A DNA stretch of 64,000 nucleotides, from the NCBI RefSeq assembly GCF_013167455.1, contig NZ_CP038328.1, one strand, 5' to 3'. A program made the position numbers. The stretch's first letter is position 1. Each line of letters starts with the position of its first letter. Origin of the DNA: Escherichia coli O157:H7 (GTDB lineage Bacteria; Pseudomonadota; Gammaproteobacteria; Enterobacterales; Enterobacteriaceae). This document shows positions 52,601 to 55,600 of this stretch, piece by piece.

Positions 52601-55600
52601 CCCCCATAACACTGTTTTTGGTTTTAACTGTTCCGCGTGCGCTCAGCCGCATTCACCGCATCACAAAATTCACTTTAAAAAGGGCGGCAGAGCAGTCACG
52701 GAGTAAAACTGATACCGCCAAACGTCACCAGAAAATTGATAACAGAGGGCGTTGCAGCGGGGTTGTCACTTAAGCGTATGGTCAACCTGACAACCCGGTG
52801 TCCTCAACGGGGGAAGGAATAACCCCTCCATACTTACCGCCGCGCCATTTCGCGGATTGCCACAACCGGAAGCGCACGGTCGACGAAAATTTAACGACAG
52901 GCTATCTATGAACCAGCTACCTCGCCGTGCGCTTTCGCGTTATGGTCTGACTTTTCAGGGAAATATCCTTTCAGTAAACTGTCAGTGCCGTATGCTCACC
53001 CGTGTCCGGCGCACGCACTCCACCTCACCCGTGGAGAACTCCTTAATTACCAACCTTAGCTTCGTTGGTTAGCTATTAACGCGGGTATGTAATCATTCTG
53101 GCAATGCTTAATGCCGCTGCTTTTTCCAGATTGGTGATATCCTGCTCCAGAGCGGACAGATTTTCAGCCTGCTTAGCCCTGGCTTCATTGGCCCATTTCA
53201 GATCCTGCGCTGCATTAATTTTCTGGTGCATCCACTCATAAAGTTCATCATCGGTATAGTCTGGCGCGATGATGACGGGTTCTCGTTTCTGCATGTCGGC
53301 TCCTTGTGGTTAGCGTTGCCTGCTTTTAACCACGTCAGGCGAGGTGGTATCCTCTGAGGGGTCTGTTACTCGAGAGGAAATTGGTTATGAATACAATCAA
53401 GTTTTCTTGCCCAGAATGTGGTGGCGAAGTCTTTGACACATCCTTTAAGCCGCAGGGCTCTGACAGTTTCGCGGGAGCCATCTGCAAAAATTGTGGTCAC
53501 CTTGTAACTGAAGATGAGTCCTCGCAGTTCGATGACGAAATCGTTGACAATATCTTCGGTGCACTCACCAGAGACTTTCTGAAGTAAAGGCGCATACCGC
53601 TTAGTTACCGCTCTGATAACTCTTACCTGTCCTGCAATGGCGCTGATGTCAATATAAAGCGCCATTGCTGCTTCTTTGCCGATCCCGGGATGCCTTCCAT
53701 TCTGATGTTTGACTTCGCCCACTGAGAAACCCTCTGTTTCCCCTTAACGCCGGGGTAGCGGAACAAAAAACTGCTGCATAGTTATTAAAGTTGAACCCTG
53801 CCGTCATGTTCATACGCCTCGGGCTGGCTACTTAACCCCTGACCACTGCCGGGTAACTCGAAGTATTTCCCTGCGTTCTGTGGGGCGGGGTGGGTTGGTA
53901 TTTTTAGTTTAATAAACATTAAACTTAAGTCAAGTAAAAACTAAACCGCGGGACATAACAAACACAACGCTTTTGATAAAGTCGTTGCGGTTGTTATGTT
54001 TCTATTGGTAGTGAAAGTTAGGGAAACTGGCGTCTTGCGTGGATCACGTTTACTACTTCAACGCTTGATGTTGTTACGCGGTATAGAATTATATAGTTAG
54101 GGTGGGCTACAATCTCACGCAAGCCAGGTACTCTGTCGCTTGGTGGGTATAAATACGGATGTTCGGATAACGGCAGCACACAACCCCTTAATCGCTGCCA
54201 TAAGCGTTCAGCCGCATCTATGTCGAAACGAGCAATATAACTAGTTATATCATCTAGGTCGGTATCTGCGCTTTCAAGCCATAACACGGGTAACATTTTA
54301 CTGCTTGCTCCGTTCCTTGCGCATCTTAGCAAAGCGTTCTGCCATTCTGCGCTCAACTTCGTCATGGGGAATTGCTGGGCGCGGATCTGCAAGGCTCGTT
54401 GCTACTTTCGCACGCAGCCATTCGTTGTAACTGTTTTCTTGTTCAATGGTTTCAAATTCAGAAACCATTGGTGAAAGGGCTCTATTCATGTTTCCTCCGG
54501 TTTTATAACTCAGGCGCGGCGGCATTTTTGCGCCGCAATCCATCTCGCTATGAGATCTTCCATTGATTCTTTTTTCTGCTTTAACTCGCTGATTATCTGG
54601 CGTTGCTCATCCTCAGGGAAGGCTGAAAAAATCTGCAATAATTCCAGTTGATTAGACGTTAACCCTGCATGTGGTGGAGAACCCCCCGGTTGTTCTGCGT
54701 ATTCCGCATCCAGATACCCTTCCGGCATCCCGTATGTTTGCTCTATTCTTCTGGCAGCCTTTTCTCCAAACGAGGCTCTCCCACTCATTAGTTGAGATAG
54801 GTAGCTCTTCTCTTTGGGTGGCAGAGTTTTATCTTTAAACCACTCCTTGAGACGTAAACGGCGAATTTCTTTTTTTTGCATGTGGTAATTATCTTTAGTA
54901 ATCACTAAACAAGCAAATACTTGACTTAATGGTTTATTAAACACTAAACTCGCAAAAAAACACTAAACCGAGGAAGGTATGACATTAAAAGAGTTTATTA
55001 AATCATTAAGGGTTGGTGATGCTAAGAAATTCGCGGCCAGACTTGGTGTATCGCCATCTTACTTATCGCAAATGGCGTCTGGACGAACAGCTATATCTCC
55101 AACCCGCGCCCTTATGATCGAATCTGCGACGGAAGGCCAAGTAAGTAGGGCGGAGCTACGACCCCATGATTGGGAGCTTATTTGGCCTGAGTATGCGAGC
55201 GGCATTCGTTTGGGGCAAACACATGTAGTTCATGCTGAAGGTGATTGTAGTGCATGCTTATCTGATGGAGTTGATTCATGAAAATCAAGCATGAACACAT
55301 CCGCATGGCGATGAATGTCTGGGCGCATCCGGACGGCGAAAAAGTACCGGCTGCGAAAATTACCAAAGCGTATTTCGAGCTGGGAATGACGTTCCCGGAA
55401 CTGTATGACGACAGCCATCCGGAAGCCCTGGCCCGTAATACCCAGAAAATTTTCCGTTGGCTGGATAAAGACACCCCTGATGCTGTTGAAAAAATGCAGG
55501 CTCTGTTACCGGCGATCGAAAAGGCGATGCCGCCTTTGCTGGTGGCCCGTATGCGCAGCCACAGTTCTGAATATTACCGTGAGATCGTCGAACGGAGGGA

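What the first reader, a model, noticed from the sequence alone, without database searches (positions are those of the whole stretch)
53895..54970. Toxin-antitoxin cassette embedded between duplicated promoter/operator modules of the prophage immunity region
The CI-like repressor gene paaR2 is co-operonic with paaA2 (63 aa) and parE2 (92 aa). The PR-like region carries three ACTAAAC operator repeats, and a near-duplicate promoter/operator sequence sits just downstream of parE2, facing the dicB-side early operon. The repressor that would maintain lysogeny therefore also controls a ParE toxin, and the leftward operon has its own copy of the operator. This looks like a TA addiction module captured inside the lysis-lysogeny switch.
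Basis: partly seen in the sequence, partly recalled or inferred. Interest (0 to 1): 0.6.

Follow-up and report, generated by a model that had tools for sequence, protein, structure and literature searches.

The report
Known prophage switch carrying a toxin-antitoxin pair
This is the immunity (lysis-lysogeny) region of the E. coli O157:H7 cryptic prophage CP-933P, where a ParE toxin/antitoxin pair rides behind the repressor gene; it was dissected experimentally in 2021, so the finding is correct but not new, although an apparently undescribed structured RNA starts right at the downstream promoter.

Summary
On the minus strand lie paaR2 (54510-54881), paaA2 (54298-54489, 63 aa) and parE2 (54018-54296, 92 aa). 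Three ACTAAAC sites sit in the paaR2/ydaS intergenic region and a fourth sits downstream of parE2. The two promoter copies share the hexamers TTGACT and TAAACT and form an inverted pair about 1 kb apart.

Jurenas et al. 2021 (mBio, PMC8630535) showed by EMSA, footprinting, 5' RACE and GFP reporters that PaaR2, YdaS and YdaT act like lambda CI, Cro and CII. They named the downstream copy PL933P with operators OL1-3, and showed that PaaR2 and YdaS repress it. They also showed that the TA pair is addictive. The "duplicated modules" are the ordinary OL/PL and OR/PR of a lambdoid phage, and the TA pair occupies the slot that rexAB holds in lambda. Verdict: already known, low interest.

In passing I found a ~105-nt RNA beginning a few bases after the PL933P -10 hexamer (53792-53898, minus strand). 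It is conserved among phages with different repressors and shows strong compensatory base-pair changes. It matches no Rfam family, and neither blastn nor my model links it to the HK022/HK639 put RNAs. Its function is unknown.

The parts
53900..53946 (-). OL/PL933P: leftward early promoter (-35 TTGACT 53933-53928, -10 TAAACT 53911-53906) with operator half-sites (ACTAAAC 53940; ATTAAAC 53918 and 53907 rc)
   Evidence: named PL933P/OL1-3 and shown to be repressed by PaaR2 and YdaS in PMC8630535
53953..53999 (-). Stable hairpin between the parE2 stop and PL; likely 3'-end/terminator-like element of the paaR2-paaA2-parE2 transcript (position of t_imm in lambda); no U-tract directly after the stem
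   Evidence: I2; -25.1 kcal/mol, z = -4.8; function inferred
54018..54296 (-). parE2, ParE-family toxin, 92 aa
   Evidence: (5CW7, E 7e-60)
54298..54489 (-). paaA2, antitoxin without DNA-binding domain, 63 aa
   Evidence: (3ZBE)
54510..54881 (-). paaR2, CI-like repressor, 123 aa, leaderless (ATG at 54881 = mapped transcription start per the paper); no S24 peptidase domain
   Evidence: (7NKV 'Phage repressor protein CI'); PMC8630535
54888..54968 (.). OR region: PRM933P (minus strand, -10 GATAAT 54893-54888, -35 TTGCTT 54916-54911, read from the sequence), PR933P (plus strand 54921-54950), palindromes TTTAGTAATCACTAAA (54894-54909) and TTTATTAAACACTAAA (54933-54948), ACTAAAC at 54904, 54943, 54962
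   Evidence: footprints and 5' RACE in PMC8630535
54979..55281 (+). ydaS-like Cro analogue, 100 aa
   Evidence: PMC8630535
55278..55703 (+). ydaT-like CII analogue, 141 aa; its published operator TTGATTN6AATCAA occurs exactly once without mismatch in the window, at 55271-55288, across the ydaS/ydaT junction (site of PRE933P)
   Evidence: PMC9986795 abstract; PMC8630535
53792..53898 (-). Conserved structured leader RNA of the PL transcript (closing helix P0, helices P1a/P1b, hairpin P2 with 15-nt conserved loop, invariant core UAAGUAGCCAGCCYGAGGCRUAYGAACAUGAMGGCA); not part of the published description
   Evidence: no Rfam match
53739..53777 (-). Second conserved leader module: GCAGCAG..GUUCCGC plus hairpin CCCC-GGCGUUAA-GGGG, just upstream of the first leftward gene in relatives
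   Evidence: by eye; not counted formally
52319..53294 (-). Leftward genes on the PL strand: ydfC 53076-53294, DicF RNA 52682-52733, dicB 52319-52507 (a convergent Zn-ribbon gene, ECs_2282 family, lies at 53387-53587 on the + strand)

Best explanation
The region is the immunity (lysis-lysogeny) switch of the lambdoid cryptic prophage CP-933P/Sp12 of E. coli O157:H7.

PaaR2 is the CI-like repressor. It is made from a leaderless transcript that starts at PRM933P. It binds operators that overlap the divergent PRM/PR promoters (OR), and it represses a second promoter/operator set about 1 kb away (OL/PL933P). It thereby shuts off the rightward operon (ydaS = Cro analogue, ydaT = CII analogue, then replication genes) and the leftward early promoter. 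YdaS competes for the same sites, which produces bistability. YdaT activates PRE933P at its operator on the ydaS/ydaT junction.

paaA2-parE2 is a two-gene TA pair whose antitoxin has no DNA-binding domain. It is co-transcribed behind the repressor gene, in the slot between cI and OL/PL that rexA-rexB occupy in lambda. Its transcription is therefore governed by the phage switch rather than by the antitoxin, and it behaves as an addiction module for this segment.

Shown by published experiment: the binding, the promoter mapping, the repression of all three promoters, the bistability and the plasmid stabilisation. Inferred: that the TA pair was captured as a 'moron'; that the hairpin at 53953-53999 ends the operon; and that PL transcripts reach dicF and dicB.
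For: - Sequence anatomy and identity to O157 genomes.
- The three proteins match deposited structures of PaaR2, PaaA2 and ParE2.
- The two promoters have identical hexamers and share a 12-bp block, in inverted orientation.
- All four ACTAAAC sites of the 64-kb window fall within these two regions.
- An exact YdaT operator lies at 55271-55288.
- Published EMSA, DNase I footprints, 5' RACE, leaderless translation, GFP reporters for PRM, PR, PL and PRE, single-cell bistability and mini-F stabilisation: PMC8630535.
- Relatives with unrelated repressors and no TA pair have a promoter at the same position, directly upstream of the same leader RNA. PL therefore pre-exists the cassette.
- PaaA/ParE homologues (64-77% or 93-95% identity) occupy the same slot behind repressors with at least three different N-terminal domains.
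Against: - PaaR2 lacks the S24 autocleavage domain of CI (stated in the paper), so the switch is not SOS-inducible in the lambda manner.
- The prophage is cryptic, so 'lysogeny maintenance' is a functional analogy, not a demonstrated role.
- No OL-OR looping has been shown.
- A convergent gene (53387-53587, + strand) and about 600 nt lie between PL and ydfC. Transcription of dicF and dicB from PL933P is unproven.
Confidence: 0.95

Rival explanations
1. paaR2-paaA2-parE2 is a self-contained three-component TA module whose regulator only autoregulates the operon. On this view the similarity of the sequence downstream of parE2 to the upstream promoter is incidental and has no regulatory role.
For: The total count of ACTAAAC in the window is not above chance. 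PaaR2 has no significant Pfam domain.
Against: - All four sites cluster in two short regions.
- The two promoters have identical -35 and -10 hexamers plus a 12-bp identical block.
- Published reporters show about 100-fold repression of PL933P by PaaR2 and by YdaS.
- The synteny matches Rac, Qin and lambda immunity regions.
Confidence: 0.02
2. The downstream promoter/operator copy was created together with the TA insertion: a piece of PR/OR was duplicated when the cassette was captured. On this view it is a by-product of the insertion rather than an ancestral PL.
For: The two copies are unusually alike (12-bp identical block, same hexamers) and they bracket the repressor-TA block.
Against: - Heteroimmune relatives without a TA pair (Rac L002, cS100a L003, Tritos L006, 683R6 L005) carry their own promoter and operators at exactly this position, immediately upstream of the same conserved leader RNA.
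- A TA-bearing relative with a different repressor (L049) has its own, different operators at PL.
- Similarity between OL and OR is expected, because one repressor reads both.
Confidence: 0.03

Closest known systems
CP-933P / Sp12 immunity region of E. coli O157:H7 (paaR2-paaA2-parE2 with ydaS-ydaT; Jurenas et al. 2021, PMC8630535; the paper cites earlier work (its ref. 8) for the three-gene operon)
   Same: It is the same sequence (100% identity).
   Different: Nothing concerning the finding differs. [quoted passage not shown] It does not describe the conserved leader RNA reported here.
Bacteriophage lambda immunity region (OL/PL - rexB - rexA - cI - PRM/OR/PR - cro - cII)
   Same: The order and orientation of the parts are the same. 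The repressor gene is leaderless. Two operator clusters about 1 kb or more apart are read by one repressor. Accessory genes are co-transcribed behind the repressor gene. (Layout from general knowledge of lambda and.)
   Different: - The passenger genes are a ParE/PaaA TA pair instead of rexAB.
- The paper counts four 18-bp palindromes plus three pseudosymmetrical operators, rather than three operators.
- PaaR2 has no S24 autocleavage domain.
- No N gene or nutL lies downstream of PL in this prophage.
Rac (racR-ydaS-ydaT) and Qin-like (dicA-type repressor, ydfABC-dicF-dicB) cryptic prophage switches of E. coli
   Same: The backbone is the same: a YdaS/YdaT-type Cro and CII, an O/DnaC-type replication module, leftward kil or dicB genes, and the same PL leader RNA. 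The C-terminal part of PaaR2 resembles that of DicA (below the curated cut-off).
   Different: The repressor DNA-binding domains and the operators differ. There is no TA pair between the repressor gene and PL in Rac, cS100a or Tritos.
HK022 / HK639 put RNAs (cis-acting antiterminator RNAs just downstream of PL)
   Same: This comparison concerns only the leader RNA noticed in passing. Like putL, it starts within about 10 nt of the PL start site and is a conserved structured RNA at the head of the early leftward operon.
   Different: - No HK022 or HK639 record was among the blastn matches to this leader, and I saw no resemblance on reading putL.
- The covariance model finds nothing in the HK022 or HK639 loci.
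- The architecture differs: about 105 nt with three arms, against two stem-loops of about 70 nt.
- There is no second copy on the PR side.
- In Arsenophonus prophages it sits upstream of a nutL-like boxA/boxB and an N-like ORF.

Membership tests
Lambdoid immunity region (CI/Cro-type switch) | Divergent repressor and cro-like genes separated by a short region holding overlapping promoters and repeated operators | tested here: met
   The 97-bp intergenic region 54882-54978 holds the PR hexamers and three ACTAAAC sites within palindromes. Footprints are published.
Lambdoid immunity region (CI/Cro-type switch) | Second operator cluster with an outward early promoter (OL/PL) on the far side of the repressor gene | tested here: met
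   The region 53900-53946 has the same hexamers, a 12-bp identical block and ACTAAAC/ATTAAAC half-sites. Repression by PaaR2 and YdaS is published.
Lambdoid immunity region (CI/Cro-type switch) | CII-like activator downstream of cro, with its own site for a PRE-type promoter | tested here: met
   ydaT lies at 55278-55703. An exact TTGATTN6AATCAA site lies at 55271-55288, the only perfect match in the window. PRE933P activation is published.
Lambdoid immunity region (CI/Cro-type switch) | Repressor with a C-terminal S24 (LexA-like) autocleavage domain giving SOS induction | tested here: not met
   The 123-aa protein has no significant Pfam domain. The paper also states that it lacks the peptidase motif. 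This is a variant feature shared with the DicA- and RacR-type repressors.
Type II toxin-antitoxin, ParE/RelE superfamily | Toxin of the ParE fold | tested here: met
   Full-length match to the ParE chain of 5CW7 (E 7e-60). More distant ParE structures (3KXE, 6X0A) are also matched.
Type II toxin-antitoxin, ParE/RelE superfamily | Antitoxin gene immediately upstream, nearly abutting the toxin gene | tested here: met
   The paaA2 stop is at 54298 and the parE2 start at 54296, a 1-nt gap. PaaA2 matches 3ZBE and the PaaA2 chain of 5CW7.
Type II toxin-antitoxin, ParE/RelE superfamily | Antitoxin carries the DNA-binding domain and autoregulates the operon | tested here: not met
   PaaA2 is 63 aa, and its only NCBIfam hit is a 45-residue RelB-type antitoxin model. 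The paper states that it has no DNA-binding motif and that regulation is by PaaR2, YdaS and YdaT. Hence it is a 'three-component' system.
Type II toxin-antitoxin, ParE/RelE superfamily | Addiction / post-segregational killing | not testable with these tools
   Mini-F stabilisation by the locus is published.
put antiterminator RNA (HK022 type), considered for the PL leader RNA | Sequence and structure similarity to putL/putR (two stem-loops, about 70 nt) | tested here: not met
   No HK022 or HK639 record among the blastn matches. I read HK022 PL/putL and the annotated putL-like RNA of HK639 and saw no resemblance. Model R1 finds nothing in L007 or L153.
put antiterminator RNA (HK022 type), considered for the PL leader RNA | Located directly downstream of the early promoter | tested here: met
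   The element begins a few nucleotides after the -10 hexamer in CP-933P, Rac, cS100a and Tritos.
put antiterminator RNA (HK022 type), considered for the PL leader RNA | Makes RNA polymerase read through terminators in cis | not testable with these tools
   This needs terminator read-through reporters or in vitro transcription.
Any Rfam 15 family, considered for the PL leader RNA | Match to a curated covariance model | tested here: not met
   No hit at E <= 1 over 53737-53900. No hit at E <= 0.5 on the element in five divergent loci.

The most novel reading that the evidence does not exclude
The TA cassette itself is not new. What may be new is the RNA made by the downstream promoter copy (PL933P).

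That promoter transcribes, from its first nucleotides, a ~105-nt three-arm structured RNA (window 53792-53898, minus strand), followed by a second conserved hairpin module. The RNA is conserved across phages with different repressors, operators and downstream genes. Hosts include E. coli, Pectobacterium, Prodigiosinella, Superficieibacter and Arsenophonus. It is absent from Rfam and is not a put RNA.

On this reading it is an undescribed class of cis-acting leader that controls the early leftward operon of Rac/Qin/CP-933P-type lambdoid phages. It could modify RNA polymerase or Rho termination. Alternatively it could gate translation of a short leader ORF whose GAGG and AUG are embedded in its invariant core.

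The probability given is for 'a genuine functional structured RNA that has not been described'. Any specific mechanism is much less likely (antitermination about 0.15-0.2).
Probability: 0.45. Interest if true: 0.6.

Novelty: already known. Interest (0 to 1): 0.15.

Why it matters
For the finding itself, little is left to discover. It is a textbook-like example, already published, of a toxin-antitoxin pair placed under the control of a phage lysis-lysogeny switch, and it shows that TA transcription can be governed by regulators other than the antitoxin.

The comparative data here add one small point. PaaA/ParE pairs occupy the same slot behind repressors with at least three different DNA-binding domains. 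That fits exchange of immunity specificity around a conserved block made of the repressor C-terminal part plus the TA pair.

The leader RNA would matter more if it is real and undescribed. It would be a widespread regulatory RNA at the very first transcribed position of the early leftward operon in a large group of enterobacterial prophages. That operon carries the kil, dicB and dicF host-toxic genes, which the host keeps silent.

Tried and rejected
1. HK022 putL-type antiterminator for the conserved leader: rejected as a family member. No HK022 or HK639 record appeared among the blastn matches. I saw no similarity on reading putL of HK022 or the annotated putL-like RNA of HK639. The covariance model does not hit those loci. 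A put-like function is not excluded.

2. Known prophage sRNAs (AgvB/AsxR anti-sRNAs, Pas sRNAs) for the leader or for the CA-rich hairpin at 53953-53999: rejected. The anti-sRNAs lie in the PR' moron site, and the Pas paper does not mention this region.

3. Rfam: no family matches the element.

4. Single-sequence folding of the leader is not more stable than shuffles (z = +1.2). The structure is visible only comparatively.

5. RNAalifold on the plain MAFFT alignment failed to find the variable helices because they were misaligned. I therefore used constrained single-sequence folds, a hand-specified structure and a covariance-model alignment. I then checked helix P2 on the structure-blind alignment.

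6. A second copy of the leader on the PR side or elsewhere in the window: none found.

7. A literature search for the invariant core sequence returned only unrelated primer matches.

8. The idea that the leader simply replaces N/nut is weakened. In Arsenophonus prophages it precedes a boxA/boxB site and an N-like ORF.

9. The short ORF starting at the invariant AUG has variable length and its frame is not conserved. I treat it as weak evidence only.
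Full report
WHAT IS THERE

The window around 53.9-55.0 kb is 100% identical to E. coli O157 chromosomes. At least 80% of the 1.7-kb stretch is present in 592 of 5426 complete E. coli genomes. RefSeq annotation of an identical copy lists, in order:
- dicB, ydfC and a zinc-ribbon gene;
- a RelE/ParE toxin, a RelB-type antitoxin and a hypothetical protein;
- divergently, a transcriptional regulator, a YdaT-family protein, a replication-initiator-like protein and a DnaC-like ATPase.

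| Gene | Coordinates | Length |
|---|---|---|
| paaR2 | 54510-54881 | 123 aa |
| paaA2 | 54298-54489 | 63 aa |
| parE2 | 54018-54296 | 92 aa |

The gaps between them are 20 nt and 1 nt. All three proteins match chains of solved structures: PaaR2 N-terminal domain (7NKV, 8C3K, 8C3L, deposited as 'Phage repressor protein CI'), ParE2 (5CW7, 5CZE, 5CZF) and PaaA2 (3ZBE).

THE REPEATS

ACTAAAC occurs four times in the whole 64-kb window, at 53940, 54904, 54943 and 54962, all on the + strand. Four is what chance would give for the window as a whole (5.4 expected). The signal lies in the placement. Three sites sit in the 97-bp paaR2/ydaS intergenic region and the fourth sits just beyond parE2.

The sites are halves of larger palindromes: TTTAGTAATCACTAAA at 54894-54909 and TTTATTAAACACTAAA at 54933-54948, read. 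This agrees with the published 18-bp inverted repeats with half-site GTTTAGTAA.

The consensus scan finds two promoters with identical hexamers:
- TTGACT-18-TAAACT on the + strand at 54921-54950;
- TTGACT-16-TAAACT on the - strand at 53933-53906.

They share the exact block TACTTGACTTAA and form an inverted repeat. One clarification: the two copies point outward in opposite directions.

WHAT IT IS

This is the immunity region of the cryptic lambdoid prophage CP-933P (Sp12 in the Sakai strain). It has been dissected experimentally by Jurenas et al., mBio 2021 (PMC8630535). The paper reports the following.
- PaaR2 and YdaS both bind the intergenic region (EMSA and DNase I footprints).
- 5' RACE maps PRM933P and PR933P.
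- paaR2 is leaderless like cI; the transcription start coincides with the ATG.
- Both proteins repress both promoters, and low PaaR2 activates PRM.
[quoted passage not shown] It is named PL933P and is repressed about 100-fold by either protein.
- YdaT activates a PRE-like promoter between ydaS and ydaT.
- The locus is bistable in single cells.
- The TA pair stabilises an unstable mini-F plasmid.
- The authors propose that paaA2-parE2 inserted into the immunity region and acts as an addiction module that limits rearrangements there.

I added a few sequence-level checks.
- Reading the sequence upstream of the leaderless ATG gives TTGCTT-17-GATAAT at the right distance.
- The published YdaT operator TTGATTN6AATCAA (abstract of PMC9986795) occurs once without mismatch in the window, at 55271-55288 on the ydaS/ydaT junction.
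- PaaR2 has no S24 peptidase domain, and indeed no significant Pfam domain at all.
- Its C-terminal part resembles that of DicA, at a score below the curated cut-off.

HOW TO READ THE 'DUPLICATED MODULES'

They are the OL/PL and OR/PR of a lambdoid phage. The TA pair sits between the repressor gene and OL/PL, where lambda carries rexA-rexB.

Relatives with unrelated repressors and no TA pair have their own promoter at exactly the same place, directly upstream of the same conserved leader. These are Rac in K-12, a Qin-like prophage in strain cS100a, and phages Tritos and 683R6. PL was therefore not created by the TA insertion.

Among loci collected for another purpose, PaaA/ParE homologues occupy this slot behind repressors with at least three different N-terminal domains, at 64-77% or 93-95% identity. 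Those repressors share a related C-terminal segment. A tblastn-detectable PaaR-like C-terminal segment co-occurs with ParE in 23 of 26 such loci. All seven loci with PaaR2-type immunity carry the TA pair. I could therefore not find a TA-less PaaR2 phage that would show the 'before' state.

In one heteroimmune relative (L049) the TA genes are followed by a canonical hairpin-plus-U-run terminator (my reading of the sequence) and then by a PL with different operators. In the window the corresponding place holds a very stable hairpin (53953-53999; -25.1 kcal/mol, z = -4.8) with no U-tract directly after it. Its role as the end of the operon is inferred.

WHAT REMAINS UNPROVEN

PL933P faces ydfC (53076-53294), DicF (52682-52733; Rfam 76.7 bits against a gathering score of 48) and dicB (52319-52507). 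However, about 600 nt and a convergent zinc-ribbon gene (53387-53587) lie between. Neither the paper nor my work shows how far PL transcripts run.

The paper also shows that ParE2 is not activated in either transcriptional state of the switch.

NOTICED IN PASSING: A CONSERVED STRUCTURED RNA AT THE START OF THE PL TRANSCRIPT

Conservation. The blast of the region showed that window 53737-53901 is conserved in thousands of E. coli genomes, with nothing annotated there. In Rac it lies between racR and the first leftward gene. In Qin-like prophages it lies upstream of ydfA. In an alignment of heteroimmune relatives the promoter and operators are unrelated. From about the transcription start the sequence becomes nearly invariant, up to the ribosome-binding site of the first gene.

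Collection. Hosts are E. coli, Superficieibacter, Pectobacterium, Prodigiosinella and several Arsenophonus. There were also some probable contaminant contigs and one chance hit in Paenibacillus.

Structure. The divergent variants show compensatory changes throughout:

| Helix | Description | Examples of the paired strands |
|---|---|---|
| P2 | Hairpin closing a conserved 15-nt loop CAAUACNNNGAGUUA | GCAGGG/CCCGGC here; CACUGAG/CUCAGUG; GCAAAG/CUUUGC; CAGA/UCUG |
| P1a/P1b | Two-part helix enclosing P2 | CCCC..CCAC/GUGG..GGGG here; GCUC..GCAU/AUGC..GAGC; GCAAC..GGCAAA/UUUGCC..GUUGC |
| P0 | Closing helix pairing the 5' end with the segment after the invariant core | CAGCAAC/GUUGCUG; UCACU/AGUGA; weaker in the E. 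coli type |

Covariation test. I built a covariance model from 36 E. coli-type copies with this hand-specified structure. It found 60 copies in 59 sources. There was exactly one in the window (53792-53898, minus strand, 136.7 bits) and none in the HK022 or HK639 loci. On the resulting alignment:
- 88.6% of cells pair, against 30-43% when the partners are slid;
- 20 of 23 pairs show changes on both sides;
- 233 cells are compensatory, against 76 +/- 9 in shuffles;
- the covariation score is 0.458, against 0.03-0.10 when slid.

That alignment was fitted to the structure. I therefore also counted P2 on the structure-blind MAFFT alignment. There, 6 of 6 pairs have double changes, and 47 cells are compensatory against 12.9 +/- 2.8 in shuffles and 0-5 when slid.

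Not a known family. The element has no Rfam match, either here or in divergent copies. The core sequence is not printed in any relevant paper of the searchable library. Among 50,697 deposited phage records, the three blastn searches matched 12 to 23 records, some of them only in the adjacent modules. The matches were mostly induced-prophage isolates, and no classical model phage was among those listed.

It is not a put RNA. No HK022 or HK639 record was among the blastn matches, and on reading putL of HK022 and the annotated putL-like RNA of HK639 I saw no resemblance.

Clues to function.
- In an Arsenophonus prophage the order is: cI-like gene, promoter, this RNA, boxA (CGCTCTTTAACA), a boxB-like hairpin (CGCTGAAAAAGCG), then an ORF with an arginine-rich N-terminus. 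The RNA therefore coexists with an N/nut system and is not simply its substitute.
- The invariant core contains GAGG (53820-53817) nine nucleotides upstream of an invariant AUG (53807-53805). A short ORF follows in every variant. It is 6-25 codons long, or fused in frame to ydfA. Its length and frame are not conserved, so this is weak evidence.
- A second conserved module, GCAGCAG..GUUCCGC plus a hairpin (53739-53777), follows. By eye it also occurs downstream of a reduced relative of the first domain in phage mEp237.

I cannot assign a function. The position, at the first transcribed nucleotides of an operon carrying host-toxic genes, suggests two possibilities. One is control of transcription elongation or termination. 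The other is control of translation of a leader ORF.

VERDICT

Interest in the finding is low. The adjacent leader RNA is the only thing here that may be new.

Noticed in passing
window 53792-53898 (minus strand): A ~105-nt structured RNA starts a few nucleotides after the PL933P -10 hexamer. It is conserved among heteroimmune Rac/Qin/CP-933P-type prophages and in Pectobacterium, Prodigiosinella, Superficieibacter and Arsenophonus. Covariation is strong: 20 of 23 pairs have double changes, and 88.6% of cells pair against 30-43% when slid. It has no Rfam match and is not related to the HK022/HK639 put RNAs.
   Followed up: yes
window 53805-53820 (minus strand): Inside the invariant core of that RNA, GAGG lies nine nucleotides upstream of an invariant AUG. 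A short ORF follows in every variant. It is 6-25 codons long, or fused in frame to ydfA, and Phage Tritos annotates its gene from this AUG. Its length and frame are not conserved, so translation is uncertain.
   Followed up: partly
window 53739-53777 (minus strand); L154 1795-1850 (phage mEp237): A second conserved leader module, GCAGCAG..GUUCCGC plus the hairpin CCCC-GGCGUUAA-GGGG, lies just before the first leftward gene in relatives. By eye the stem varies compensatorily (GCCG/CGGC, GCCU/GGGC). It also occurs in mEp237 and Citrobacter phage Chris1. In mEp237 it follows a reduced relative of the first domain, right after a TTGACTTAATGG promoter.
   Followed up: partly
L148 780-1260 (Candidatus Arsenophonus triatominarum); also L129, L133, L137: In Arsenophonus prophages the leader RNA is followed by a boxA (CGCTCTTTAACA), a boxB-like hairpin (CGCTGAAAAAGCG) and an ORF with an arginine-rich N-terminus. 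That is a nutL/N arrangement downstream of the element. Some contigs carry two copies 1.8-2.7 kb apart on one strand.
   Followed up: partly
window 53953-53999: A very stable imperfect hairpin (-25.1 kcal/mol, z = -4.8) lies between the parE2 stop and PL933P, with no U-tract directly after it. It is probably the 3' end of the repressor-TA transcript. In a heteroimmune relative (L049 10520-10550) I read a hairpin-plus-U-run terminator in the same place.
   Followed up: partly
L014, L016, L047, L049, L057, L064, L070, L080, L107, L123 and others (IMG/VR contigs): PaaA/ParE homologues (64-77% or 93-95% identity) sit between the repressor gene and PL in phages whose repressors have at least three unrelated N-terminal DNA-binding domains but a related C-terminal segment. 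A PaaR-like C-terminal segment and ParE co-occur in 23 of 26 loci.
   Followed up: partly
window 55271-55288: The published YdaT operator TTGATTN6AATCAA occurs without mismatch exactly once in the window, across the ydaS stop and ydaT start. The other five matches have two mismatches and lie elsewhere.
   Followed up: yes
window 52475-52684 (minus strand): A sub-threshold match to the Rfam sRNA family STnc100 (39.7 bits against a gathering score of 47, E 5.6e-6) lies immediately downstream of DicF and reaches into the start of dicB (52507). A similar hit occurs in the Actinobacillus-labelled phage locus L004.
   Followed up: no
window 49567-52038 (minus strand): The leftward exonuclease gene is an intact 823-aa ORF here. 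In another O157 genome with the identical immunity region it is split by an IS1203 insertion.
   Followed up: no
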